This document shows, piece by piece, positions 3,974 to 19,522 of a stretch of DNA of 64,000 nucleotides; position 1 is the stretch's first letter; the number at the start of each line of letters is the position of its first letter. The stretch is from Halomonas sp. HL-48 (lineage in GTDB: Bacteria > Pseudomonadota > Gammaproteobacteria > Pseudomonadales > Halomonadaceae): the NCBI GenBank assembly GCA_001314875.1, contig LJZS01000019.1, positions 276-64,275 of the forward strand. The letters are read 5' to 3'. The position numbers and the translations under genes were made by a program. The notes below the pieces were generated by a model. The model was not told the origin of the DNA, ran no database searches, and saw only the letters and a list, made by a program, of their open reading frames with translations.

Positions 3974-5104
3974 CTATCTTTGCGCAACCTGTTGGCGACG
4001 CACCCAGGCAGCGCGGATAGCTTCAGCGCCCATCCCGGTCAGCAACCCTAAAAAGGGGTCTGCCCAGATAGTGACCGCTGCCGTCATCCCGATGACAGGC
4101 CAGCAAGACGGTTTGGCAGACGTAAGGCGCTTAGTAAAGGCCAACTCAGTGGCCGCCACTAGCAGCAATGCCCCAAGACCTGCCGTTGGAATGGCCGCCA
4201 ACAACGAGAGCCCACCCGGCACCAACGCCACCGAGCACAAACCAATCCCTAGCAAAACAGGCGCAATGCCGGTACGAGCCCCAAAGCGGTAATGCGCCGC
4301 CAAGCCACCCGCCCCATGGCACATGGGTAACGCCCCGAGCGGTACCATAAAGAAGTTGGCAAGCCCGGTACTCATTGACAACCGAGCAGGCGTTACATGA
4401 CGTGCTTGCACACCAAAATAATCCTCAGCCATCAAGGCCGTAAGCAGTATGGCATTGGTGAACGTTAGCGCTAACTGGGGTAACACCAACATCGAAAACC
4501 CTTCTTGCCAAGCGCTTACGCTCGATAAATCAGGTAGAGAGAAACTAGAAAAATTCGCCGTATGAAGAGCTATCCCTGGTGCCTCAACCAACGCACCCAG
4601 GGCGACTGACACTCCAAGACCCAATAGAACCGCCGGGAAATGTGGCAATGTCCGCAAGACAACAACCAATACCGACAACGTGACAATCCCGACCAGCGGC
4701 GACGTGGAGATCAGGCCAATACTCATGTAGGCAAGCATCAGACCCAACCCTAACTGAACCCCGCTTAGAACCGACCTAGGCACCAGCCGCGCTAGCCAGT
4801 TAATCCATCCAGTCGAACCCAATAGCAGTAAAACCGCGCCGATCAGTATGCCACTCGCGGCTAAACTTTCCGCACTTACCTGAGTCGTGAGCAACACTGC
4901 AGACACAGCCTTCATGGGCTGCACCGGTATAGGCAGACGATAATAAAGCCCCGTTGCGATATAAAACGCTGCAAATCCCAGCAGGACAGGTATCGGGGCT
5001 AATCCTGCCACCCCAATAGCGCCCAGGCTAGGCGGCAGCAACGTCCCCAAATCACCGAGCGCGCCGCTGGCATCTTTCAATAGATGATTTTTCGATGCAG
5101 ACAT
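3974..5104 (-). CDS. MOT1/SulP-related putative molybdate (sulfate) transporter
   Basis: GDLGTLLP and PVQPMK motifs (MOT1 signature) in a polytopic membrane protein. The start is moved to ATG 5104 (MSASKNHLL). Confidence 0.6.
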   Translation of the reverse strand: MSASKNHLLKDASGALGDLGTLLPPSLGAIGVAGLAPIPVLLGFAAFYIATGLYYRLPIPVQPMKAVSAVLLTTQVSAESLAASGILIGAVLLLLGSTGWINWLARLVPRSVLSGVQLGLGLMLAYMSIGLISTSPLVGIVTLSVLVVVLRTLPHFPAVLLGLGVSVALGALVEAPGIALHTANFSSFSLPDLSSVSAWQEGFSMLVLPQLALTFTNAILLTALMAEDYFGVQARHVTPARLSMSTGLANFFMVPLGALPMCHGAGGLAAHYRFGARTGIAPVLLGIGLCSVALVPGGLSLLAAIPTAGLGALLLVAATELAFTKRLTSAKPSCWPVIGMTAAVTIWADPFLGLLTGMGAEAIRAAWVRRQQVAQR

Positions 5105-8869: not shown

Positions 8870-10747
8870 GTGGATTCCATGACTGCCAGCGATTCCCGAC
8901 ATCACAGAGATCCGGAACGCCTGAAGAAGAACCGCAGGGGGGTTTCCGGCGCACGTGTGTTGGCGGTGTCAAAGACACCTTCAACGGATGGCATCGATTC
9001 GCATGATGCCGGCAGGGAAGAAGTCGCGTTAGTACGCCGCCAGTATCTGGAAAGTGAGCAGCGATTCCGCGCCCTGCTGGAGAGTCTGCCGAAGGTGGCG
9101 GTTCAGGGGTATGATCGCGATCGGCGAGTGATTTACTGGAATGAGGGTAGCACTCGTCTCTATGGCTATACCGCTGAGGAAGCCCAGGGACAGTTACTGG
9201 AAGATCTGATCATTCCTGATTTCATGCGTGACGAGATGATCCAGGCGCATGATGCCTGGATCAAAGAAGGCGTCGAGATACCCGCCGATGAACTCGAGCT
9301 CAAGCATAAAACAGGTGAACTGGTATCGGTCTTTTCGCAGCATCTGATGCTCAATGAGCATACCGACTCTCCGTTGATGTTCTGCGTGGATGTCGATCTT
9401 TCCGACCAAAAGCGCGCCAACCGTGACCTGGAATTCGCCACCCGTTTCGACAGGCTCACCCATCTCCCTAACCGCCAGACCTTCGAGGTCGACCTGGACA
9501 GTCTGTTGGATTCCTGTCGGCGCCAGGGCAATGGCCTGGCAACCATCTACCTGGACATCGATCACTTCGTCGAGATCAATGATGCCCTTGGCTATGATCA
9601 GGGCGATCGCCTGCTCATTGAGCTGACGCGGCGACTGAGAGAGTGCCAGCGAATCACTGACCTGGTGTCCCGTGTTTCTAGCGATGAATTCGTGCTGGCC
9701 TTTCCCGGCGTCCACTTGGCTCCCGATGTCAGACGGGTCGTTCGCCATGTCCAGAATGTCTTTCGGAAACCTTTCGTCCTGGATGGTCGGGAGCGTCTCG
9801 TCACGGCCAGCCTGGGGGTGGCGCTCTTTCCCGAGAATGGTGAATCGTCACGCGAATTGATCCGTAATGCCGATGTTGCCAAGAATCGTGCCAAGCTGGA
9901 GGGCCGGGGTGCTGTACGTTTCTTCGAACAGAAGCTCCATGATGAGCTGGTTCGCCAGCACTATCTCTCGGCGCGACTCGAGGAAGCCCTGGATAACGGT
10001 GAATTCTCTCTCCACTACCAGCCCCAGGTCTCGGCGGCCAGTGGGCGAATAGAGAATCTCGAGGCCTTAATACGCTGGCAGCCTGCCGAGGGCCCGCCGA
10101 TCTCGCCTGGCGAGTTTATCCCGCTGGCCGAGCGCTCCGGTGTGATCCATCGGCTGGGAGACTGGGTCATCGAAGAGGCTTGCCGCCAGCAGGTGGAATG
10201 GCGTGCCAAGGGATTTCATGAGCACCGCATCGACATCAATGTCTCTGGTCGTCAACTGGTGCGCCCCGATGCCCTCAAGAGCTTCGAAGACACGCTGCAG
10301 CGTCACGGCTTAGGTCCACGGGATATCGGCATCGAATTGACCGAGAATGTCCTCATCGAAGCCGACGAGACCCTCCTCGAGGACCTGCGTCGCCTCTATC
10401 ATCGCGGTATTCGCATTGCGATCGACGACTTCGGGACCGGTTATTCCTCCCTGAGCTATCTCAAGCACTTTCCAGTCACCGCCCTGAAGATCGATCGCTC
10501 CTTCATCCACGACGCTCCCACACAGCCCAAGGATAGGGCCATCATGGAGGGTGCCATCTTCATCGGTCATCGGTTGGGATTGGAGGTGGTAGCCGAAGGC
10601 GTCGAGAATGCCGAACAGCTGTCATTGCTGCGCGAAATGCATTGCGACCTCATCCAGGGGTTCTTCTTCTACCGTCCTATGCCTGCCAAGGAAATCGACC
10701 GCCTGCTGGGCGGTTTCGTGCCTGGTCACGAGGGGCCGTCGAGCTGA
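8870..10747 (+). CDS. PAS / degenerate GGDEF (SSDEF) / EAL c-di-GMP phosphodiesterase
   Basis: PAS region (FRALLESLPKVAVQGYD...YWNEGSTRLYGYT). The GGDEF position reads SSDEF. The EAL domain has intact EALIRW, DDFGTGYSSL, KIDRSF and EGVE motifs. Confidence 0.85.
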   Translation: MDSMTASDSRHHRDPERLKKNRRGVSGARVLAVSKTPSTDGIDSHDAGREEVALVRRQYLESEQRFRALLESLPKVAVQGYDRDRRVIYWNEGSTRLYGYTAEEAQGQLLEDLIIPDFMRDEMIQAHDAWIKEGVEIPADELELKHKTGELVSVFSQHLMLNEHTDSPLMFCVDVDLSDQKRANRDLEFATRFDRLTHLPNRQTFEVDLDSLLDSCRRQGNGLATIYLDIDHFVEINDALGYDQGDRLLIELTRRLRECQRITDLVSRVSSDEFVLAFPGVHLAPDVRRVVRHVQNVFRKPFVLDGRERLVTASLGVALFPENGESSRELIRNADVAKNRAKLEGRGAVRFFEQKLHDELVRQHYLSARLEEALDNGEFSLHYQPQVSAASGRIENLEALIRWQPAEGPPISPGEFIPLAERSGVIHRLGDWVIEEACRQQVEWRAKGFHEHRIDINVSGRQLVRPDALKSFEDTLQRHGLGPRDIGIELTENVLIEADETLLEDLRRLYHRGIRIAIDDFGTGYSSLSYLKHFPVTALKIDRSFIHDAPTQPKDRAIMEGAIFIGHRLGLEVVAEGVENAEQLSLLREMHCDLIQGFFFYRPMPAKEIDRLLGGFVPGHEGPSS

Positions 10748-10898
10748 GCCTTGTCTTGATTTGACGTCCAATGCCCGGGGTTGCCATGACCTGGAGACTT
10801 TTGTGAACGCCCCCGATGCTCATTGATCGCAGGGACTGACACTGTGGCCCTAGCTGGATTGCCGTTATCGGCCAGGAGCTGTAATTCAGACGAAACTG

Positions 10899-10982
10899 AT
10901 GTAACACTTGCAGCATGCGCGCCCATGGAATGGAGCCGAAAGCGCAATGTGATGGGCGTCGCCGTGCCTGCACTTGTTAGCA
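10899..10982 (-). other. attC-like recombination site downstream of the NTPase gene
   Basis: Minus strand reads TGCTAAC-AAGT-GCAGGCAC...CGCCCAT...ATGGGCG...GCATGCTGC-AAGT-GTTACAT. TAAC pairs with GTTA, and GCAG[G]CA pairs with TGCTGC leaving a bulged G. The AAGT/AAGT spacers do not pair. Length is 84 bp. Confidence 0.5.
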
Positions 10983-10986
10983 TGGG

Positions 10987-12435
10987 TTACCACTTAAACA
11001 ACCTTAGTTTTCGATTTAAGCCAAAGTGAACAATTAGGTCCATGGAGGGGTTCCATGCGAGATCATCATCTTTATATTTGAACAACCACCTTTTACCATC
11101 CAAATTACCCACGACCCCAAAATCAAAGAGAATTTCCACAACATCTTCAGGCCCTTTTCCTTGATCTTTAAACCACTTACTAATAACCCGATCTGAATTG
11201 AGTTGGTCTACATAATCGCTATACTTTATCTTTCCAGTACCGATACGAGTTAGACATTGCAAAGCCTCCCTCCATACAGGTAGATAGCTATGTATTTCAT
11301 CCCTTAACTCATTGTAAAGCCACGCTGAATAATTATCCTCTGCCGCCCTCACTTCTTCAAACGTCAATCGACCTCCATTATTTTTCTTTTGGCAATTTTT
11401 TAAAAATTTAATTATATCTCTTGGTCGTTCATATGTTCTATTGACCATGTATTGCCATATACTATTGACCCGATTCGGCAAAGAAGGGTCACTATCGTCA
11501 ACTATCGCACACCAAGGATCACTGACACCCCCTAAATTGAGGCTAGTACTGATTCTGGCGTTCGGGACATTTTTCAGAGCATACTCTGATTCATCATCTT
11601 TGGAGATCCAATTAAGCCTTATAAGATGATCATCCAATTTGTTCAGATCATTATCTTCCAGGCGGTCAAATATATCAGAACGTAGTACTAGCAAAGGTCT
11701 ATATATTAGTGATGACCGCTGTAGCGATATGGCAGAATCCTCAACGGCACGAAGGAGAGCCAGAAGCAAAAGTCGCAATCCACTATCGCCAGATCTAAAC
11801 CCTTCATCCAGCTCATCCATAAACAGCCAATACTGACTATTAGTTTTGACGTTTATTAGCAGGTCTTTAAGTATATCAACAACTTTTTGATAATGAACTT
11901 GCATCTCAATTTGTGAAGAATCGCTTCTTTGGTACTCTCCTTCCAGCCACTTAGCTAAAATTTTTACTTTAGACCCAGAGCTTTTTAACAATGTTACGGT
12001 ATCTGTAAATCCCATTCCATCACTCAGATTATTCATCACCAAAAATGTCTCTAGCGCATCTATAGCTTCTATTGAGGATGCGCCGTTATCATCAATGGCA
12101 ATTTTTGCCAATTCGACATAGATTAAAAATAGCCAGACAGGTACAAACTGGGATTTATCCCTAGATGATCTATCTCGAAAGTCTCGAATATCATTTATAG
12201 GGAAGTCTCGTAAGGTTAGTGTTGAATAAAAACACATTGGGTCATCCTCTGCCTCCAAACGAAGACGTTCCAATATTGCCGTTTTTCCCGCGCCTTTTCG
12301 CCCAATAACGTACCTAACTTCTCCGCTCCTAATTAACTCAAATTCCGGAAACGGCACGAAATACTCAATAAGATCATCATCACCTTTCGCTTCATCCTGA
12401 CCCCAGCGAACTTGATTAAAATTCCAGATATCCAT
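10987..12435 (-). CDS. P-loop NTPase, unclassified (AAA+/STAND- or Sll1717-like)
   Basis: Walker A GRKGAGKT (aa 45-52 from M at 12435), Walker B WLFMDELDE (aa 203-211), and an RPRD motif at aa 337-340. AT-rich codon usage. The 18 extra N-terminal codons of the track ORF overlap the attC-like element, so the start is moved to MDIWNF. Confidence 0.75.
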   Translation of the reverse strand: MDIWNFNQVRWGQDEAKGDDDLIEYFVPFPEFELIRSGEVRYVIGRKGAGKTAILERLRLEAEDDPMCFYSTLTLRDFPINDIRDFRDRSSRDKSQFVPVWLFLIYVELAKIAIDDNGASSIEAIDALETFLVMNNLSDGMGFTDTVTLLKSSGSKVKILAKWLEGEYQRSDSSQIEMQVHYQKVVDILKDLLINVKTNSQYWLFMDELDEGFRSGDSGLRLLLLALLRAVEDSAISLQRSSLIYRPLLVLRSDIFDRLEDNDLNKLDDHLIRLNWISKDDESEYALKNVPNARISTSLNLGGVSDPWCAIVDDSDPSLPNRVNSIWQYMVNRTYERPRDIIKFLKNCQKKNNGGRLTFEEVRAAEDNYSAWLYNELRDEIHSYLPVWREALQCLTRIGTGKIKYSDYVDQLNSDRVISKWFKDQGKGPEDVVEILFDFGVVGNLDGKRWLFKYKDDDLAWNPSMDLIVHFGLNRKLRLFKW

Positions 12436-12470
12436 TTTCTTCAAAGCCCCATGATTTATGAAACGAAAAG

Positions 12471-12530
12471 TTTTAACGCCAGAGCACACCGGCTCACTTT
12501 AGTGCGTCCGCGTAGCGCGACTTGTTAGCA
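12471..12530 (-). other. attC-like element (less canonical) downstream of the 2-TM gene
   Basis: Minus strand reads TGCTAAC-AAGTC-...GTGAGCCGG...CTGGC-GTTAAAA, 60 bp. It shares TGCTAACAAGT with the 10899-10982 element and GTGAGCCGG with the 13145-13224 element. I could not build a convincing L''/L' pairing. Confidence 0.35.
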
Positions 12531-13133
12531 GATTTCCCAACGCTTGCTATTGGAATCCCATTCGTACTTCTGGGCGCGCACCCGATCGGACTTATGATAA
12601 AAAGTATACTCATAGATGATCGCAAGCTCTATCTTACTTCCCAAACCCTCTTGTGTTGGCATATCTACACCAACATTAGCTAACTCGTCGTAGGGTTCAA
12701 ACCTTCGTTGTCTTCGATCTTGACCAATCATTGTCATATTTGGGCGAAACAGATGGTCAAGCGAGTACTTCGTACCGCTTACTGTAACTGTTAATTTTAT
12801 AGTTAAGTCATCGAACTTGTTGTTAGTAATATTTTGATAGTGGATAAAGCTAACCGGTATACTGGTACCGCTTTCATATCTGTTATCCAAAACAATCAAT
12901 AGTTGCGGTCTTTGCGATTCTATGAATGCACGGTTCGTCTGCAAATAGCTGAAAATCACAAACGTTGCAGAAACCAATGCCCCAACACTCGCTGCAATTG
13001 CGATAATTGACGACACGAGTTCTGCATCCTCAAGATCTAATGACTTTGTAGTAACCAAATACCAGCTGGCAAACGAACCTGCCGCAATGATACAAATCGA
13101 TACTATCAATGAGCTTAAAAAATTTTTGATCAC
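12525..13133 (-). CDS. Hypothetical 2-TM membrane protein with a ~135-aa C-terminal soluble domain
   Basis: GTG start preceded by GGAGAA. There are two hydrophobic helices (aa ~5-27 and ~39-63). I recognise no family. Confidence 0.7.
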   Translation of the reverse strand: MIKNFLSSLIVSICIIAAGSFASWYLVTTKSLDLEDAELVSSIIAIAASVGALVSATFVIFSYLQTNRAFIESQRPQLLIVLDNRYESGTSIPVSFIHYQNITNNKFDDLTIKLTVTVSGTKYSLDHLFRPNMTMIGQDRRQRRFEPYDELANVGVDMPTQEGLGSKIELAIIYEYTFYHKSDRVRAQKYEWDSNSKRWEIC

Positions 13134-13144
13134 AATTCTCCAAC

Positions 13145-13224
13145 TACTAACGCCCGGCTCACGCCGCAGGTTTGGAGCCGCGAGGCGGCGGAAAACCGGT
13201 CCGCTGTGCAGCCGATTGTTAGAA
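13145..13224 (-). other. attC-like recombination site downstream of the HNH gene
   Basis: Minus strand reads TTCTAAC-AATC-GGCTGCAC...(GC-rich 43 nt)...GTGAGCC-GGGC-GTTAGTA. CTAAC pairs with GTTAG, and GGCT[G]CAC pairs with GTGAGCC leaving one extrahelical G. The spacers are unpaired. The HNH TAA stop lies inside the CTAAC box. Length is 80 bp. Confidence 0.6.
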
Positions 13225-14079
13225 ACGGTTACGAAGCTTCGCTCTAAGCTCTTCTATTCTATAAGGAGGATTACGCCTGTGAATCATTGAGTGGCAGTTC
13301 GGGCATACAGGGACCAAATCATTAATCGGATCTATTTGGTACTCGCCTTTTTGATGCGACACAGGGACAATGTGATGAACGTGAATAAATCCGCGTCCTA
13401 TATCTCCATATAAATCCTTAAAATTTAAATAACAGACTTTACATTTCACCCCATGATAATCGATACATTGCTGTCTTGCCTTTGAACTTCGCTCATATTT
13501 GGTCAACTCATAGGACAACTCTTGCCCTTCAACGATCTGGGCGTCATCAATTTTCGGAATTTCGTCACGATTTATTTCACCCGATTCGTGAACTTCAAAA
13601 TTGCCGTCTGATTTCACGACTTTTAACTCCCATACGCCCCATTCACCGATGTGGAGAGACGATTCAGGCGGCAATTCGTAAGCAAACTTCTCCGTTATGT
13701 TTCGTCGGTCCTCCGATGGAACCAATTCATTCATAATCCTTCTTCGCTTGTGTGTATACCAAGCAGGCCATTCTCCGAGCTGCCCTATCCAGGACTCTTC
13801 TTTTCCATAACAATGCCGTGCTATTTCAAAAGCTTGTTCTTTAGTAGGAACTTTAGCTTTTAGAGTATATATATTTTCCTGAAGAATTTCCGGTGGTTGC
13901 AGATATGCGTAGTTTTTCGTCGACTTAACTAGCTTCCACCCTCTTCTTGGCAACAGGACGGACAAAGTCATTGCTGCCCCGAAACGAAAGACCCCCTCAC
14001 CATACTTCTTAGGCGCCTTACCTTGCGCTTCAAATCTAATTGAGGCTTCTGACCAGTCAGAAGTATCGTATTCCATCAT
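13219..14079 (-). CDS. HNH endonuclease with an uncharacterised ~195-aa N-terminal domain
   Basis: C-terminus ARQQCIDYHGVKCKVCYLNFKDLYGDIGRGFIHVHHIVPVS...DPINDLVPVCPNCHSMIH is a CxxC...HVHH...CxxCH HNH/McrA-type motif (aa ~205-267). I do not recognise the N-terminus. Confidence 0.8.
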   Translation of the reverse strand: MMEYDTSDWSEASIRFEAQGKAPKKYGEGVFRFGAAMTLSVLLPRRGWKLVKSTKNYAYLQPPEILQENIYTLKAKVPTKEQAFEIARHCYGKEESWIGQLGEWPAWYTHKRRRIMNELVPSEDRRNITEKFAYELPPESSLHIGEWGVWELKVVKSDGNFEVHESGEINRDEIPKIDDAQIVEGQELSYELTKYERSSKARQQCIDYHGVKCKVCYLNFKDLYGDIGRGFIHVHHIVPVSHQKGEYQIDPINDLVPVCPNCHSMIHRRNPPYRIEELRAKLRNRF

Positions 14080-14127
14080 TTTCCTGCTTGTTTCTAAAAG
14101 CGTATTAGACAGCGCGTTCTATGATTG

Positions 14128-14278
14128 AAGGAACGCGCTGGCACTTTTTCGCGGCAAATGCAGCCTGTCAGATTCTCCCAAGCCTATGGCCCTTTGACTA
14201 TTATTTTCCATTAGTCAATATAGCCAAAATTCCCGCTCTTGCTGCATTTCCAAGAATGTCCGCTCAGGGTCGTTAGCA
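14128..14278 (-). other. Possible degenerate attC-like element upstream of the HNH cassette
   Basis: Minus strand reads TGCTAAC-GACC-CTGAGCGGAC...GCCAG-CGC-GTTCCTT. It shares the TGCTAAC box and a GCGGAC motif with the other elements. CTG[A]GC pairs with GCCAG. The length (151 bp) and the weak R' box lower confidence. Confidence 0.3.
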
Positions 14279-14561
14279 GCCTTTTCTCATTACAAGCACC
14301 TGATCAATTTCATACTAAACTTAGCCTAGCACAAGCTGCTTAAGCAGGCTGAGCTGTGTAAGCATTATTTTCAACGTTGCACCGATTTGTTCAGTAGGGC
14401 TAATAAACGACAAGCCCCACGCAGGTTTCAGTCAAGATCCCGATTAAGCCAATGCATGGGCGCTAGCCAGCGTCCGCGCCATACCTATAAGCATCAGCCT
14501 AATGGGGCGGCTGGGGCCGACAATGGCTACTGGCCTATCGCCGTGAAAGCTGGCCGGTTCA

Positions 14562-15458
14562 CTAGCGACTGCCTCTTTTGATCTTATACATATGGCTGTC
14601 TGCATGGCTTACCAGGGTTTCGGCGTCTTCCCCGTCGGCGGGATAACAGGCAACGCCGATGCTGCAGCTTGGCATTTTCACCTCACCGAACTCAGCACTT
14701 AGCGGCTGGTTGATGACAGCGAGTATCTGCTCAATCTTTTGTGTAACAGCATGCGCTGACTGAATCTCTGTTAACAGAACCGTGAATTCATCACCGCCTA
14801 TCCGGGCTACGTTATCTGTCTCCCTTACACAGCCTTCCAACCGTCTGGCTACCGTGCAGAGGATCCGGTCGCCCATGGCATGTCCATGGATATCATTGAT
14901 GCTCTTAAAGTCATTGATGTCCAAAAACAGCAACGCCAGTCTGTTCTTATGTCGATGGGCTGCGCGCAAGCCTGAGTCTAGTCGATCATAGAATAGCGCT
15001 CGGTTAGCCAGTTTTGTCAGCGGGTCGTGAAGGGCGAGGTGACGCAATTCCTCCTCGGCCTGCATGAGGTCGGTAACGTTGCGCGCCACCCCGATCCGCA
15101 CGCCCTCCTCCTCGTACCAGCGGGCAGACCACAGTATGTGGACGACTCCACCGTCTTTACGTATATAACGGTTGCGGAAATCAAGGTGGGGCTTACCACT
15201 CATCACGCGAGTAATGGAATCCCGCGTGGCCGCTAAATCGTCAGGGTGCATGTAGTCAATGATTTGGGTGTCGATCAACTCGTGCGGAAGGTAACCGAGC
15301 AGTGACTCGCAGGCGTCACTCACAAAGATGATCTGGTTGTCTTTATCCACCACGAATACGGTGTCTAGCATCAAGTGAATCAGTTTTGGATAGAGCGCTT
15401 GCAGGTCAACGGCCATAGGTTGGGATAATCCGGTTAGCATTCCTCGACTATAGAGCAA
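14562..15458 (-). CDS. PAS-GGDEF diguanylate cyclase
   Basis: PAS domain followed by an intact RIGGDEF. An RETD (RxxD I-site) lies five residues upstream of GGDEF. Confidence 0.85.
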   Translation of the reverse strand: MLYSRGMLTGLSQPMAVDLQALYPKLIHLMLDTVFVVDKDNQIIFVSDACESLLGYLPHELIDTQIIDYMHPDDLAATRDSITRVMSGKPHLDFRNRYIRKDGGVVHILWSARWYEEEGVRIGVARNVTDLMQAEEELRHLALHDPLTKLANRALFYDRLDSGLRAAHRHKNRLALLFLDINDFKSINDIHGHAMGDRILCTVARRLEGCVRETDNVARIGGDEFTVLLTEIQSAHAVTQKIEQILAVINQPLSAEFGEVKMPSCSIGVACYPADGEDAETLVSHADSHMYKIKRGSR

Positions 15459-15871
15459 TCGCGAAGAGGAAATACATGATTCTGTTCACTTTGGGTCGTT
15501 AACTGACTAACCCCAACTTTCAAAACGAGCCCATAAACCCTTGCAGGATATTCCTTTATCAATACTCACGCGCTGACAACGTCGCCAGTGGCCTTCTGCA
15601 CTCCATCTGCATAACGAAAGGCTAACTCCTCAACCACCTTAGCACCTGAACGTCGGCTATGCCCTTTACTCTGCGATTTTTTCATGGGAAGCGTTGTTGC
15701 AAAATATCATGTTAATCATGAACTCCACAGCGCTTAAGGGCTTTGATAGCCAAGTCGCCGATACCACGCTTGCCGCTGAAAATGGCGCTGGCCCCCAATC
15801 GACGGCGTAGTGTCACTGTGCCAAGATCATGATGAATCATTGACCCGCAGCAAGAGGAGCACAGAACCACC

Positions 15872-16726
15872 ATGCCTGAGGATTCCTTTTGGTTGGAGCT
15901 GTTGAGCAACCGTCTGGTGAGCTCGATTGCGCTCGTGGCGATTCTTATAACGCTGCGCATCCTTGCCGTGCGTGTCATTCGCGGACGCCAAGAGATCCTG
16001 TCCGATTACCGGCGCGCCTGGCTGGCCCGGACCCGGAACGCTGCCGTCATTCTTACGTTACTCGGTTTGGCGCTGATCTGGCTGCCGTCCCTACACGCCT
16101 TTGCGCTTTCCATCACCGCCTTCGCCGTGGCCTTGGTGATTGCAACAAAGGAACTGATTCTTTGCCTTTCGGGCACCGTGCTGCGTATCGTCAACCAACC
16201 GTTCGAGATTGGCGACTGGGTCGAAATCGGCGACCTGCGCGGCCAGGTGGTCGACGAAACCATGCTGGCAACGACCCTGCAGGAAATTGGCGGCGCGGTG
16301 GGACGTTTTGAATACTCCGGCAAGACCATCGTGGTGCCCAACAGCATTTTCCTGACCACGCCGATCCAGAATCAGAACTTCTTCAATAAGTGGGTGTATC
16401 TTGAAGTCTGCGTCGTTTTAGAGCCCAACGTGGATATGCGATCCGAACTGCCGGCTCTTGAGGAGGAGGTGGCAGCGCTTCATGCCCCGCATTCCGAATT
16501 GGCCCAACGCTACAGCGAGGTGATCAGAAAACGCAGCGGTATCGATATCGCCGACCCCCATCCCCGCGTGACCCTTTCGACCACGGACATTGGCAAGCAG
16601 CGCATCGGCGTCACGCTTTTCTGCCCCACGCCCAGCGCCTTTGAAATGGAGCACGCCATCAACGACACCGTGCTGCGCCGTTATTGGCATTTGCGCAATA
16701 TGACGAACGCCTCGGCACACGCGTGA
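15872..16726 (+). CDS. MscS-family mechanosensitive channel
   Basis: Three N-terminal TM helices, then FEIGDWVEIGDLRGQVVDE (MscS beta-domain signature). Confidence 0.8.
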   Translation: MPEDSFWLELLSNRLVSSIALVAILITLRILAVRVIRGRQEILSDYRRAWLARTRNAAVILTLLGLALIWLPSLHAFALSITAFAVALVIATKELILCLSGTVLRIVNQPFEIGDWVEIGDLRGQVVDETMLATTLQEIGGAVGRFEYSGKTIVVPNSIFLTTPIQNQNFFNKWVYLEVCVVLEPNVDMRSELPALEEEVAALHAPHSELAQRYSEVIRKRSGIDIADPHPRVTLSTTDIGKQRIGVTLFCPTPSAFEMEHAINDTVLRRYWHLRNMTNASAHA

Positions 16727-17075
16727 CCAGAAACCGCCTGCCTTCATTTGTTATTGATGGCGGTCACGAACCCCACATCGCCTCAAGCATACTTTGTAAT
16801 TTTTATTGCTGTCTGAAGAGATTAGCTGATTGATGTGGGGCATTTGTAGCGTGGTCTCTCGTTTGTTTTAGGTGTGCTGCCGCACGGAACAATTGGATGT
16901 TTCGGTTCAAGCTCATGGAGATCATTTGAAAAGGCGTTGCGCAACAAAACGGCTTTGTGCGTTTACGTAATTTAAATTGGTCATCGCCGATGAAAACCAG
17001 GCAAAGCGTTACGAATGCCATGTGTATTTATCAGTGAATTTTGATGTATCTCGTCACAAGACAGTGAGGTCTTAG

Positions 17076-17549
17076 ATGAACGCTGAAAAGATGAAAAAAG
17101 AAAACGACACAAAGGCTGACCAAGCCACAAATCGCACTAAACAGAAAATTGATCAATCGGTTACTGAGCCTTTACGCGCCTATGGCACACTAACAACCGA
17201 TTATTACGAAAAACTATTCTCAACCCAGTTCGATACTGTTCGCGCGCTTGCAGATAGTAGCTTGGCCCAATCCCGCTCTTGGCTTGACGTGCGGGATGCC
17301 GAAAGCTTTCAAAAAGTCGCTGAAGACCAGCAACAAGCCTTTCGGGAAATAAGCGAGCGGCTGAAGGACGATACCGATAAAATTCGCTCGCTAAGCCAGG
17401 AATTTCTGCAAGAAAGCAAACAGTTAGCAATGGACAACATGCAGGTCAACCGTAAACACCTGGAAGACAATATGCAGCAGGGTAAGAAGCAGGTTGAGGA
17501 CAGCATGCAAAAGAGTAAAGACCAGGCAGAAAAGAGTCAGCAGCACTAA
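17076..17549 (+). CDS. Phasin-family (PHA granule-associated) protein
   Basis: 157-aa helical, Q/E/K-rich protein with YYEKLFSTQFDTVRALAD, similar to phasin_2 proteins. It lies near a PHB depolymerase-family gene (next called CDS, ~740 bp downstream). Confidence 0.55.
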   Translation: MNAEKMKKENDTKADQATNRTKQKIDQSVTEPLRAYGTLTTDYYEKLFSTQFDTVRALADSSLAQSRSWLDVRDAESFQKVAEDQQQAFREISERLKDDTDKIRSLSQEFLQESKQLAMDNMQVNRKHLEDNMQQGKKQVEDSMQKSKDQAEKSQQH

Positions 17550-17616
17550 TACCAGCAATAAATCTACTAGCAAGTCCAAGTAACGTTGCCAATATCACTG
17601 CCAGCTTTATATAACT

Positions 17617-17648
17617 AGACCGTTGCCCCAGGGAAACGGTCTTTTTGT
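17617..17648 (+). terminator. Rho-independent terminator of the phasin gene
   Basis: AGACCGTT-gccccaggga-AACGGTCT followed by TTTTGTTG. Confidence 0.6.
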
Positions 17649-18287
17649 TGCGCGCCAGTCATGGCAAAAGCACCTTGACGGGCACTGTTTATGAGCGTGG
17701 TGACTCAGGGTGACTTTGGTGTGAACGTTACTTAAGAACCCTGATAGCAGTAACCACATCCGGAGAGGAAGATAGTTAAGGCAGAAGGCAATAGTGTCTC
17801 GAGGATCGATCATCATATAGGTTCTGGCGCTAATGATGTAACGCACAGGGACAGTCACAGAAGTTCTCCAGGGCAGGTGCGCCGATTCTACCCCCTCTGG
17901 CCGAAGATCGAGAAAAATTAGAACAGTCGGCCTACGAAGAAAAAGTGACGCCACGATCCTTGCAGCGCACAACGCAACATCCTTGTTTAGGCATTTCCTT
18001 TGCCACGCTTATTCTTAGGATGACCCTTATGACACGTATTCTCTGTGCGCTAGCGAACTCGGCACAAAAAATCGCTAGCTAACCGGCATCATTTACTTGA
18101 TCTTTATCATTTAAATCCTAGTTCAATTTGCTCACTGAAGGCCTTCCAGGCAGAAAACCCCATAGCGACTAAAGTCGCATGTTCGCTTACGCACAGAGAA
18201 ATCTCTGCCTGTCGAATAACATGACGCTTAATGTGTGGTGGAGGAACAGCCCATTGATGGGAGTCACGCCATGCCTCAGGAGATAAG

Positions 18288-19229
18288 TTGATGTTCAATC
18301 TTATGGATCCCAGTGGGTATATGGGCGGAATCAACAGCCATAAAGACCGTCTGGTAGACCTGAAAAAATTTGGGTCAAACCCTGGTGCCTTAAAGGCCAA
18401 GACCTACATACCAGAAGATTTGCCCTCAGACGCTCCACTCGTCGTCGTTTTGCATGGCAGCGATCAGACAGCAAACGAATATAATACGGGTGCCGGTTGG
18501 TCTGATATTGCTGACCTATACGGCGTTGCTTTGCTTTTCCCCGAGCAGCAGCGCATGAACAATTTGATGCTCAGTTTTAATTGGTTCGAACCTGCCGACT
18601 GCCATCGCGGCGCTGGCGAGCCACTCTCCATTCTAAATATGATTGAAAAAGTCGCCAGCGATCATGGCATTGACCGCCAGCGTATCTTCATCACAGGGTT
18701 GTCATCCGGCGGTGCCATGACAGCCGTCATGCTTGCGACTTACCCGGAAATCTTTGCTGGTGGTGCCATTATCGCCGGGTTGCCTTACGGCAGTGCCGAC
18801 ACACTCCCAGCGGCCTTACTGCGAATGAAAGGGCTCGGATCCCCGACAGCGCAACAGCTTGAAACACGGCTACGGGATGCTTCGGAGCACGAAGGCCCTT
18901 GGCCAACACTTTCTGTCTGGCACGGAAGCGGTGACCATACGGTAAATTCCTCGAACGCCAAAGCGATTCTCAGACAGTGGCGAGCGCTTCATGACCTTAA
19001 CCAAACGCCATCCAGCATACACACCGTGAGTGGCTATCCACGCAGAGCCTGGAGTGATGACGAGGGTCGAGAACTCATTGAAGAATTCAGCATTACCGGG
19101 ATGGACCACGGCACACCGTTGAAGACGCATGGTAAAAACAGTTTCGGTTCGAGCGGCGACTACATGCTTGAGGTGAATATCTCTTCCACACACCACATTG
19201 CTGACTTCTGGGGATTGAGTGCAGCATGA
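18288..19229 (+). CDS. PHB depolymerase-family esterase
   Basis: FGSNPGALKAKTYIP, LVVVLHG and GLSSGGAM (nucleophile elbow) are typical of the esterase_PHB family. Confidence 0.75.
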   Translation: MMFNLMDPSGYMGGINSHKDRLVDLKKFGSNPGALKAKTYIPEDLPSDAPLVVVLHGSDQTANEYNTGAGWSDIADLYGVALLFPEQQRMNNLMLSFNWFEPADCHRGAGEPLSILNMIEKVASDHGIDRQRIFITGLSSGGAMTAVMLATYPEIFAGGAIIAGLPYGSADTLPAALLRMKGLGSPTAQQLETRLRDASEHEGPWPTLSVWHGSGDHTVNSSNAKAILRQWRALHDLNQTPSSIHTVSGYPRRAWSDDEGRELIEEFSITGMDHGTPLKTHGKNSFGSSGDYMLEVNISSTHHIADFWGLSAA

Positions 19230-19262
19230 TGCCCGCGATGGGCTAAGCATACGTTCAGCCAT

Positions 19263-19452
19263 ACCACGCCGATCCAGAATCAGAACTTCTTCAAAGAAGT
19301 GGGTGTATTTTTGAAGTCTGCGTCGTTTTAGAGCCCAACGTGGATATACGATCCAAACTGCCAGCCCTTCCAGCCCTTGAGGAGGAGGTGGCATCGCTTC
19401 ATGGCCCAGCATTCCGAATTGGCCCAACGATTCAGCGCGGTGATCAGAAAAC
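19263..19452 (+). pseudogene. Fragment of an mscS paralogue (frameshifted duplicate of 16355-16532)
   Basis: Alignment by eye gives roughly 85-90% identity to the mscS region encoding TTPIQNQNFF...SEVIRK. It carries a 2-nt indel after TTCTTCAA and a 9-nt duplication (CCAGCCCTT). The frame hits TAG after ~20 codons. Confidence 0.6.
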
Positions 19453-19522
19453 ACCAGCCTTCAATTCCTGGCAATGAACACGGTAAGCTTGGCGGCGACA
19501 CCGCCGCTGAGTAACGACCTCA

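What the first reader, a model, noticed from the sequence alone, without database searches (positions are those of the whole stretch)
10899..14278. GC-rich attC-like sites after each ORF: an integron cassette array without an integrase (CALIN)
On the coding strand each ORF ends at, or 4 nt before, a CTAAC box. The next ORF is preceded by a GTTA box, and GC-rich DNA lies between the boxes.

- Best example (13145-13224): TTCTAAC-AATC-GGCTGCAC...GTGAGCC-GGGC-GTTAGTA. CTAAC pairs with GTTAG. GGCT[G]CAC pairs with GTGAGCC, leaving one extrahelical base on the R''-L'' arm. The spacers cannot pair.
- Second example (10899-10982): TGCTAAC-AAGT-GCAG[G]CAC...GCATGCTGC-AAGT-GTTACAT.

This is the R''-L''...L'-R' geometry of integron attC sites (consensus RYYYAAC...GTTRRRY). 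The elements at 12471-12530 and 14128-14278 share the TGCTAAC box and GCGGAC/GTGAGCCGG motifs but fold less convincingly. The TAA stops of the HNH and TM genes lie inside the CTAAC box, as is often seen in cassettes.

No intI or attI is visible. The next gene upstream is a diguanylate cyclase.

Cassette-borne nuclease and NTPase genes would fit the idea that chromosomal integron cassettes store defence functions.
Basis: seen in the sequence. Interest (0 to 1): 0.8.

Follow-up and report, generated by a model that had tools for sequence, protein, structure and literature searches.

The report
Integrase-less integron: attI plus three cassettes
This is a real but ordinary integron gene-cassette array (three imported genes, each ending in an attC recombination site) in a Vreelandella/Halomonas chromosome; it has lost its integrase gene but still carries the attI insertion site.

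Summary
Two GC-rich elements are full-length attC sites: 13145-13224 and 10899-10982, minus strand. They belong to two attC types conserved across marine and halophilic Gammaproteobacteria. A pattern shared by both found 99 genomic stretches. A covariance model built from those gave 70.1 and 89.1 bits (E about 1e-17 and 3e-23) in the window.

Elsewhere these sites form co-oriented arrays. In nine loci they lie upstream of, and divergent from, an integron integrase or a fragment of one.

The element at 12471-12530 is a decayed copy of a 60-nt attC type.

The fourth element (about 14093-14282) is not an attC. It matches the intI-attI intergenic region of integrase-bearing Halomonadaceae integrons, down to the TCTAA...TTAGA core. 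Its CTAAC box is a chance match.

DNA similarity to a Pseudoalteromonas cassette (91.6% over 950 nt) starts and stops at the predicted crossover points of cassette 1.

No integrase-like sequence occurs in the 64 kb. The locus is therefore a CALIN, most likely a chromosomal integron that lost intI. The cassettes encode an HNH endonuclease, a two-helix membrane protein of unknown family and an Sll1717-family P-loop ATPase. A defence role is plausible but untested. This is a known kind of element.

The parts
14098..14282 (-). attI-like region, a relic of the integron platform. The core inverted repeat is TCTAA (14108..14104) ... TTAGA (14097..14093). The base at the crossover position is T14098 where relatives have G.
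   Evidence: 83% over 190 nt to L015 and 75% to L068. The 3' 74 nt match the intI-attI intergenic region of the intI-bearing loci L067 and L071. The seven-way alignment A3 also covers L082 and L064. Motif search. The CM gives no attC hit here.
14200..14227 (-). Candidate cassette promoter (Pc): TTGGCT-16-AATAAT.
   Evidence: Consensus scan only, 9 of 12 matches. It lies in the part of the attI region conserved in A3. Not tested.
13151..14097 (-). Cassette 1 (947 bp): HNH endonuclease gene 14079/14076..13219 plus its attC.
   Evidence: PF01844 at E = 4.9e-8. blastn to Pseudoalteromonas L111 covers window 14097..13148 at 91.6% over 950 nt, so it starts at the TT after the crossover and ends in R'.
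13145..13224 (-). attC of cassette 1 (type A, 80 nt).
   Evidence: CM R1 gives 70.1 bits, E = 1.1e-17, full length. attC-like DNA hairpin.
12477..13150 (-). Cassette 2 (674 bp): 202-aa protein with two N-terminal hydrophobic helices, ORF 13133..12525.
   Evidence: No Pfam, NCBIfam, PADLOC or PHROG hit. About 100 representative homologues, nearly all around 200 aa.
12471..12530 (-). Decayed attC of cassette 2 (60-nt class).
   Evidence: CM gives 16.3 bits, E = 0.058, with broken pairs. No stable fold. 89% identical to L027 3224-3277 and 85% to L067 1085-1137; both of those are significant attC hits inside arrays.
10905..12476 (-). Cassette 3 (1572 bp): Sll1717-family P-loop ATPase, ORF 12435 (or 12489)..10987.
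   Evidence: NF047389 at 285 bits, cut-off 75. A 75%-identical homologue in L115 is followed by an attC within an array.
10899..10982 (-). attC of cassette 3 (type B, 84 nt), the last site of the array. The crossover is G10905 | TTACAT.
   Evidence: CM gives 89.1 bits, E = 3.2e-23. Fold.
10748..10904 (-). Chromosomal backbone after the last crossover (TTACATCAG...TGGCCGATAACGG...), running to the convergent GGDEF-EAL gene.
   Evidence: Similar to the same junction in L100 (V. nanhaiensis) and L108, starting at or a few bases after the TT.
8870..10747 (+). Flanking core gene (PAS-GGDEF-EAL).
   Evidence: Pfam. 94% aa identity to Vreelandella nanhaiensis.
14562..15458 (-). Flanking gene (PAS-GGDEF), sitting where intI would be expected.
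   Evidence: Pfam. No IntI similarity in the window.

Best explanation
The region is the cassette end of a sedentary chromosomal integron of a Vreelandella (formerly Halomonas) species that has lost its integrase gene.

On the minus strand it reads: an attI-like region (14282..14098), then three independently acquired cassettes, then the chromosomal backbone. The cassettes are HNH endonuclease, a membrane protein of unknown family and an Sll1717 P-loop ATPase. Each ends in an attC site.

Shown:
- attC family membership of E1 and E3.
- Homology of E2 to attC sites.
- Homology of E0 to attI regions.
- Cassette-exact boundaries for cassette 1.
- Absence of intI from the 64 kb.

Inferred:
- Each cassette entered as a circle by IntI-mediated recombination between its folded bottom-strand attC and attI at G|TT. 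This pushed older cassettes away from attI, so the HNH cassette is the newest.
- The genes are read from a promoter in the attI region.
- Without intI in cis, with a G-to-T change at the attI crossover base and a decayed middle attC, the array is now largely frozen. An integrase supplied in trans could still excise between the two intact attC sites.
- The cassette products plausibly act in phage or foreign-DNA defence.
For: attC family:
- A pattern shared by E1 and E3 hit 99 genome stretches. I estimate about 1-2 expected by chance.
- These fall into two conserved types, 78 and 84 nt.
- The attC fold holds in 92.8% of cells, with compensatory changes at 9 of 20 pairs and conserved bulged G and A.
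- The CM gives 89.1 and 70.1 bits in the window and nothing else significant.
- It gives 245 hits across the 99 loci. By nhmmer, 40 of the 41 loci with at least two hits are co-oriented, with median spacing 1416 nt.

Link to integrases:
- Five neighbouring integrases pass TIGR02249 at 389-453 bits, cut-off 265.
- In all nine loci with intI or an intI fragment, the attC sites are on the opposite strand, upstream of intI.

Other elements:
- E0 aligns with the intI-attI intergenic regions down to the core.
- E2 is 85-89% identical to array attC sites.
- The cassette 1 homology breakpoints fall at the crossover points. In Pseudoalteromonas the same cassette sits between two attC sites.
- No IntI similarity in the window.

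Locus in relatives:
- The same chromosomal locus holds different cassettes with attC sites in L100, L108 and L015.
Against: - The IntegronFinder attC model itself could not be run. My CM was seeded from the window's own elements, so its hits on E1 and E3 are partly circular. The independent support comes from context and covariation in other genomes.
- Folding z-scores are weak.
- The first bulged base is G on the top strand, so C on the recombined bottom strand. From memory, classic sites such as attC-aadA7 have G on the bottom strand.
- The attI assignment rests on homology and position next to intI in relatives, not on a recombination assay.
- The crossover base is T, not G.
- Whether the rest of the genome carries an intI is unknown.
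- The defence role is unsupported beyond weak PADLOC hits and the genomic company of homologues.
Confidence: 0.87

Rival explanations
1. The array is a true orphan CALIN. Cassettes were inserted by an integrase acting in trans at a secondary (attG-like, GTT) chromosomal site, and the locus was never an integron platform.
For: No intI in 64 kb. The crossover-position base upstream of cassette 1 is T, not the canonical G. The far flank differs between relatives.
Against: The 190 nt upstream of cassette 1 are homologous to the region between intI and the first cassette in L067, L071, L082 and L064. The match includes the TCTAA..TTAGA core at the same distance. Related genomes carry different cassettes at the same junction (L015, L068, L108), as expected of an attI platform.
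Confidence: 0.07
2. The three genes form one defence operon (nuclease, membrane protein, ATPase), and the GC-rich intergenic hairpins are terminators, attenuators or REP-like stabilisers.
For: The genes are co-oriented and tightly packed, with low GC like many defence islands. There are weak PADLOC hits for the HNH protein and a GajA-like P-loop stretch.
Against: - Each gene occurs on its own elsewhere. The HNH cassette is flanked by two attC sites in Pseudoalteromonas with cassette-exact homology. The ATPase homologue sits in a different array in L115 and in a Vibrio island without the other two.
- The terminator scan finds no terminator-like site at any of the elements.
- The elements are absent from the rest of the window.
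Confidence: 0.04
3. The platform is still active. An integron integrase encoded elsewhere in the genome or on a plasmid keeps exchanging cassettes at this intI-less attI.
For: Window, L015 and L068 share the same attI-proximal 190-nt segment without intI, yet each has a different first cassette. L100 and L108 hold other cassettes at the same chromosomal locus. E1 and E3 are near consensus.
Against: The same pattern could arise from whole-array replacement by homologous recombination between relatives, or from independent intI losses. E2 is decaying and the attI crossover base is mutated in the window. No second integrase could be looked for.
Confidence: 0.3

Closest known systems
[quoted passage not shown]
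   Same: At least two attC sites are clustered within 4 kb, co-oriented after ORFs, with no integron integrase nearby. [quoted passage not shown]
   Different: An attI-homologous region is still attached upstream of the first cassette. One of the three attC sites is decayed below what a model would normally call.
Sedentary chromosomal integrons of Gammaproteobacteria (e.g. the Vibrio cholerae superintegron, Xanthomonas integrons with decayed intI)
   Same: It lies at a fixed chromosomal locus shared by related species. The attC types are conserved, the cassettes are of low GC and mostly unknown function, and cassette content differs between relatives.
   Different: There are only three cassettes. 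intI is absent altogether rather than present or pseudogenised. The attC sites in the array are of three different types rather than one species-specific repeat.
Integron cassettes encoding anti-phage systems (bioRxiv 10.1101/2024.07.02.601686 and 10.1101/2024.07.02.601719)
   Same: These are compact nuclease and NTPase genes carried as single cassettes. Homologues sit in defence-rich islands.
   Different: None of the three proteins matches a named defence system at a meaningful score. No functional test exists.

Membership tests
integron attC site | Inverse core (RYYYAAC) at the ORF end and core (GTTRRRY) at the distal end; these pair as the R box with the conserved AAC/GTT. | tested here: met
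   E1 has TTCTAAC...GTTAGTA and E3 has TGCTAAC...GTTACAT. The AAC/GTT columns are invariant in 67 family members. E2 retains CTAAC...GTTAA.
integron attC site | L''/L' stem separated from the R box by an unpaired central spacer. | tested here: met
   A 5-bp L stem with full compensatory exchange between types (CGGCT/AGCCG against TGCAG/CTGCA). The 3-nt spacers are unpaired on both arms. Not met by E2, which has stem-breaking substitutions.
integron attC site | Extrahelical bases on the R''-L'' arm (features listed in PMC5027507). | tested here: met
   A conserved bulged G (column 16) and A (column 24) on the 5' arm in all 67 sequences, and in E1 and E3. The first base differs in identity from the classic bottom-strand G; that comparison is from memory.
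integron attC site | Detected by the IntegronFinder attC covariance model. | not testable with these tools
   The model is not available, and Rfam has no match. As a substitute, my own CM R1 gives 89.1, 70.1 and 16.3 bits for E3, E1 and E2.
integron attC site | Occurs in co-oriented arrays after ORFs, next to and divergent from intI in some genomes. | tested here: met
   245 CM hits in 99 loci. 40 of 41 multi-hit loci are co-oriented. Nine loci carry intI or a fragment on the opposite strand.
integron attC site | Recombined by an integron integrase through the folded bottom strand. | not testable with these tools
   This needs an assay. Indirect evidence: the homology breakpoints of cassette 1 fall at G|TT.
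CALIN | At least two attC sites clustered (4 kb or less apart) with no integron integrase nearby. | tested here: met
   E1 and E3 are 2.2 kb apart with E2 between them. tblastn with five IntI proteins finds no hit below E = 0.4 in the 64 kb. Neighbouring genes are GGDEF, EAL and MscS.
complete integron | An intI gene adjacent to attI. | tested here: not met
complete integron | An attI site upstream of the first cassette. | tested here: met
   Met by homology and position only. The crossover base is T instead of G. Function was not tested.
complete integron | A Pc promoter reading into the cassettes. | tested here: inconclusive
   One consensus-level site at 14227..14200.
REP / intergenic repeat family | Copies scattered between unrelated genes throughout the genome. 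| tested here: not met
   No further copies in the 64 kb. Elsewhere the elements are confined to arrays.
known anti-phage defence systems (PADLOC) | Proteins match the models of a defined system. | tested here: inconclusive
   Only weak hits: the HNH protein to mREase_IV at E = 8e-5, and the ATPase to GajA at E = 0.003 over 46 residues.

The most novel reading that the evidence does not exclude
An intI-less attI platform is conserved at one chromosomal locus across Vreelandella and Halomonas lineages and still turns over its first cassettes. This would imply routine service by integrases acting in trans, or recombination-driven array swapping. The HNH cassette would be a new modification-dependent restriction enzyme whose confidently predicted 170-residue N-terminal beta domain has no solved-structure match.
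Probability: 0.25. Interest if true: 0.5.

Novelty: new member of a known kind. Interest (0 to 1): 0.3.

Why it matters
The result shows that a reader working from raw sequence can recognise attC sites correctly. It also gives a clean, well-delimited example of how chromosomal integrons decay: the integrase is gone, attI is retained with a mutated crossover base, and one attC is eroding.

The locus is a small natural experiment. Related strains carry different cassettes at the same integrase-less platform, which bears on whether CALINs are dead relics or are still serviced in trans.

The cassettes themselves are candidates for compact defence genes. They are an HNH nuclease with an unmatched N-terminal domain, an uncharacterised membrane protein and an Sll1717 ATPase.

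None of this changes current understanding of integrons.

Tried and rejected
- Rfam scan of the whole window: no family at gathering score.
- Thermodynamic significance of the hairpins: weak. Folding alone cannot carry the claim.
- Exact-protein look-ups for the HNH and PAS-GGDEF ORFs failed, probably because the called start codons differ.
- E0 as a long (about 160 nt) attC: I could draw R/L pairings by eye. However, the fold z-score is about 0, the CM gives no hit, and its CTAAC is not conserved in homologues. Rejected in favour of attI.
- REP hypothesis: rejected.
- Search for intI remnants in the window and in L100-L108: none.
- L102-L107 (metagenome relatives) have four small minus-strand ORFs at the locus but no CM hit, so their status is open.
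- Fold search of the HNH model against the PDB: only the C-terminal HNH motif matches locally (Cap5, probability 0.98 over 95 columns). No hit reaches E = 0.001 or better.
- Literature search for 'Sll1717': no papers.
- The genome-wide scan did not return the window's own genome, so the presence of an intI elsewhere could not be checked.
Full report
**What is in the sequence**

Between a PAS-GGDEF-EAL gene (8870-10747, plus strand) and a PAS-GGDEF gene (15458..14562, minus strand) lie three minus-strand ORFs:
- 286 aa, with an HNH domain (PF01844, E = 4.9e-8).
- 202 aa, with two N-terminal hydrophobic helices and no family hit.
- 500 aa, or 482 aa from the ATG at 12435.

The 1-kb windows covering the genes have 39-44% GC, against about 52-58% around them.

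On the coding strand each ORF is followed by a GC-rich element:
- E1: 13224..13145.
- E2: 12530..12471.
- E3: 10982..10899.

A further segment, E0, lies upstream of the first ORF. The HNH and TM stops are the TAA inside CTAAC. The ATPase stop lies 4 nt before TGCTAAC.

**Folding**

The fold has a 5-bp CTAAC/GTTAG-type stem, 2-3 unpaired bases on each side, a second stem and a bulged G on the 5' arm. The bottom strand is slightly more stable: -20.0 and -19.6 kcal/mol, against -19.3 and -18.8 for the top.

The energies are not unusual for the composition. The z-scores are -1.3 to -1.8. E2 and E0 do not fold above background. Folding alone therefore proves nothing.

**Are the elements a family, and which one?**

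E1 and E3 share CTAACAA-N6-GCAC-N-GCG-N21-CGGCTCCA. Allowing small gap variation, I estimate about 1-2 chance matches in the 596-Gb genome collection. The scan returned 99 stretches. Nearly all were in Marinobacter, Halomonas/Vreelandella and other marine or halophilic Gammaproteobacteria.

The matches fall into two sharply conserved types:
- A 78-nt type, to which E1 belongs.
- An 84-nt type, to which E3 belongs.

The sites typically begin at a stop codon. An RBS and start codon follow 10-40 nt after the GTT.

On an alignment of 67 distinct copies I tested an attC-style structure. It has a 5-bp R box, 3-nt unpaired spacers, a 5-bp L box, a bulged G, 2 bp, 3 bp, a bulged A, and further pairs. 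Results:
- 92.8% of cells form standard pairs, against 21-40% when the partners are slid by 1-3 columns.
- 9 of the 20 pairs carry changes on both sides.
- The whole L box is exchanged between types (CGGCT/AGCCG against TGCAG/CTGCA).

These are the features that define attC sites in the literature: R and L boxes, an unpaired central spacer, extrahelical bases near L'' and a variable terminal structure (PMC5027507).

**Covariance model**

Model R1 was built from that alignment. I ran it over the whole window with filters off:

| Element | Bits | E-value | Note |
|---|---|---|---|
| E3 | 89.1 | 3e-23 | full length |
| E1 | 70.1 | 1e-17 | full length |
| E2 | 16.3 | 0.058 | placed exactly on the element, several broken pairs |
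| E0 | none | - | no hit |

Nothing else in the window reached E < 0.1.

Because the model descends from a pattern taken from E1 and E3, those two scores are partly circular. The independent evidence is what the family does in other genomes.

**Context of the family elsewhere**

- Over the 99 loci the model finds 245 sites at E < 1e-3, including shorter and longer variants.
- With a sequence-only profile, 41 loci have at least two sites. In 40 of them all sites are on one strand. Median spacing is 1416 nt.
- Clustering the long ORFs of these loci gave one recurrent protein.
- Five copies of that protein pass the NCBIfam integron-integrase model TIGR02249 at 389-453 bits, against a cut-off of 265.
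- tblastn added further loci with intI cut by the locus end or present as fragments.
- In the nine intI-bearing loci I checked (five with full-length intI, four with end-cut or partial copies), the attC hits lie upstream of intI on the opposite strand. This is the canonical integron layout.

E1 and E3 are therefore members of genuine attC families. The REP alternative is excluded. The boxes do not recur in the other 60 kb of the window either.

**E2**

blastn of E2 against the fetched loci gives 89% identity over 54 nt to L027 3224-3277 and 85% to L067 1085-1137. Both are significant CM hits (33.3 and 35.4 bits). Both lie inside co-oriented arrays, and the L067 array adjoins an intact intI.

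Aligned with 17 members of this 60-nt class, E2 keeps CTAACAA, GGACGC and GGCGTTA. It carries substitutions that break stems: GCAC to CTAC, and GTGCG to GTGAG. E2 is a decaying attC.

**E0 is the attI region, not an attC**

- Window 14281..14093 matches L015 (Vreelandella sp. F11) at 83% over 190 nt and L068 (Halomonas litopenaei) at 75%.
- Its last 74 nt match L067 and L071.
- In L067 and L071 the matching piece lies between the intI start codon and the first cassette.
- A seven-way alignment that also includes L082 and L064 shows shared blocks ending in ...CAATCATAGAACGCGCCGTCTAATAC-CTG|TTAGA.
- The window reads ...CAATCATAGAACGCGCTGTCTAATACGCTT|TTAGAA. The TCTAA/TTAGA inverted repeat is kept, but T replaces the crossover G.
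- The 'TGCTAAC box' that made E0 look like an attC reads CTTTC in L015 and CTTCA in L068. It is a chance match.

Where the intI-bearing loci have a LexA-box-like CTGT-N8-ACAG and the intI start, the window, L015 and L068 have an unrelated 40 nt (GGCTGCT..CGACCCTGAGCGGACATTC). This is consistent with one ancestral loss of intI. It is not proof, because L068 has that segment in another context, just downstream of a phage-type tyrosine integrase.

tblastn with five IntI proteins finds nothing below E = 0.4 in the window, and no convincing similarity (best E = 0.026) in the relatives' loci L100-L108.

**Cassette boundaries**

The HNH protein has an 87%-identical homologue in a Pseudoalteromonas genome. 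At the DNA level the similarity covers window 14097..13148 at 91.6% over 950 nt.
- It begins at the first T after the crossover position. The window has ...ACGCTT|TTAGAAACAAGC and Pseudoalteromonas has ...GAAGCG|TTAGAAACAAGC.
- It ends inside the R' box of E1.
- In Pseudoalteromonas the unit lies between a 60-nt attC (33.6 bits) and a type A attC (81.7 bits). In the window it lies between the attI-like region and E1.

That is the signature of an integron cassette moved by G|TT recombination.

The ATPase has a 75%-identical homologue followed by an attC (37 bits) within another array, L115. Another homologue lies in a Vibrio island without the other two genes. The three genes are therefore separate cassettes, not an operon.

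Cassette coordinates:
- Cassette 1: 14097..13151.
- Cassette 2: 13150..12477.
- Cassette 3: 12476..10905.

**Host and locus**

The flanking GGDEF-EAL protein is 94% identical to that of Vreelandella nanhaiensis. The chromosomal backbone resumes right after the E3 crossover (G|TTACATCAG...TGGCCGATAACGG). It is shared with V. nanhaiensis (L100) and Halomonas sp. SIMBA_159 (L108).

Those genomes hold other small minus-strand ORFs with attC hits at the same place:
- L100: 48.8 bits.
- L108: 56.8 and 27.4 bits, plus two weak hits.

L108 and L015 show that the locus lies between the GGDEF-EAL gene and an ApbA gene. The window has an extra 5 kb there, from PAS-GGDEF to the gene at 18288-19229. Two metagenome contigs carry the same island in the same context.

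**Cassette products**

- The ATPase belongs to NCBIfam NF047389, 'P-loop ATPase, Sll1717 family', at 285 bits against a cut-off of 75. It also matches a PHROG of unknown function. I found no literature on the family.
- The HNH protein has only weak PADLOC hits (mREase_IV at E = 8e-5). Some sources name its homologues McrA-like.
- An AlphaFold model of the HNH protein has mean pLDDT 85.5. It shows a confident beta-rich N-terminal domain (residues 1-170) joined by a disordered linker to the HNH motif. Foldseek against the PDB matches only the HNH part locally and gives no hit at E = 0.001 or better.
- The membrane protein has about 100 representative homologues, nearly all around 200 aa, and no annotation.
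- In relatives, the cassettes at this platform include a HerA-like ATPase pair, a RES-domain protein and a weak TIR-like protein. The Pseudoalteromonas copy sits among defence-type genes next to type I-F CRISPR-associated transposon genes.

A defence role fits published work on integron cassettes (bioRxiv 10.1101/2024.07.02.601686 and 10.1101/2024.07.02.601719). It is inference only.

**How it most likely works**

Shown: the anatomy, namely attI-like region, three cassettes each with an attC, backbone, and no intI.

Inferred from established integron biology:
- Each cassette was captured at attI by an IntI acting on the folded bottom strand of its attC. The HNH cassette is therefore the latest arrival and the ATPase the oldest.
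- Transcription probably starts in the attI region. One consensus-level promoter lies at 14227..14200.
- With intI lost, the attI crossover base mutated and E2 eroding, the array is largely fixed. An integrase supplied in trans could still act on E1 and E3.

**Comparison and verdict**

The locus meets the IntegronFinder definition of a CALIN: at least two clustered attC sites and no integrase. The authors proposed CALINs to be degraded integrons (PMC9024848). Here the retained attI homology supports that origin directly.

Taxon-specific attC conservation in Oceanospirillales and Alteromonadales has been described (PMC8352920).

This is a new member of a known kind.

Noticed in passing
L002, L029, L057, L066, L087, L098 (sequence directly after the matched attC): Six Halomonadaceae loci end their attC with GTTGAGGCTGTAGAAAAA(C/G)CCC.... 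This conserved post-array junction differs from the window's GTTACATCAG. It suggests a second conserved integron platform or array terminus in the family. The motif is absent from the window.
   Followed up: partly
window 13219-14079 (-), protein residues 1-170: The N-terminal domain of the HNH protein is predicted with pLDDT above 90 as a beta-rich fold. It is conserved in 790 homologues but has no significant PDB match. It may be a DNA- or modification-sensing domain.
   Followed up: partly
L111 1017-14081 (Pseudoalteromonas sp. JBALXK010000001): The 87%-identical HNH cassette lies downstream of TniQ, Csy2, Csy3 and Csy4 (type I-F CRISPR-associated transposon genes). Around it are Mrr_cat, SIR2_2, adenosine deaminase and Ham1-like genes, with several attC hits. 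Integron cassettes appear to sit inside or beside a CAST cargo region.
   Followed up: no
window 14150-14245 (-); L067 4150-4240 (-): The attI region holds a 9-bp inverted repeat, AAATGCAGC...GCTGCATTT. In the intI-bearing L067 it reads AAATGTAGCC...GGCTACATTT, so it is kept through changes on both arms. It may be a regulatory or integrase-binding element.
   Followed up: no
L071 about 405-425; L067 about 4270-4290 (alignment, columns 25-45): The intI-bearing relatives carry a LexA-box-like CTGT-N8-ACAG next to the intI start (perfect in L071). This fits SOS control of the integrase. The box is missing from the window, L015 and L068.
   Followed up: no
window 14283-19456: About 5 kb separates the attI-like region from the ApbA gene in the window. 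It holds PAS-GGDEF, an MscS-like channel, phasin and two more ORFs. The segment is absent between these landmarks in L015 and L068-like relatives and in L108. This is an insertion here or a deletion there.
   Followed up: partly
L068 4219-5346 (-) and L068 1875-3978; L015 4746-7792: In H. litopenaei a phage-type tyrosine integrase (PF00589, not IntI) ends 37 nt upstream of the attI-like segment. The cassettes there encode a weak TIR-like protein and a RES-domain protein. In Vreelandella sp. F11 the first cassette holds a 427-aa protein plus a HerA-like DUF87 ATPase.
   Followed up: partly
L084 3363-8000, L094 1-5969, L012 4779-8000: In three other Halomonadaceae genomes, attC arrays abut homologues of window genes at about 25-35 kb. 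The integron neighbourhood is broadly conserved, but the exact position differs.
   Followed up: no
L102-L107, downstream of the GGDEF-EAL gene: Metagenome relatives (90% flank identity) have four small co-oriented ORFs without Pfam hits at the same locus. The attC model gives no hit there. They may have a different attC type or may not be cassettes.
   Followed up: no
L108 about 12300-12420 (-): Halomonas sp. SIMBA_159 has AAAACGCGCATGCGCATGAATAAAACTGTTAGTT upstream of its cassettes. This resembles a shortened version of the attI region (AACGCGCAAGCGCGCGAAT ... CTGTTAG).
   Followed up: no
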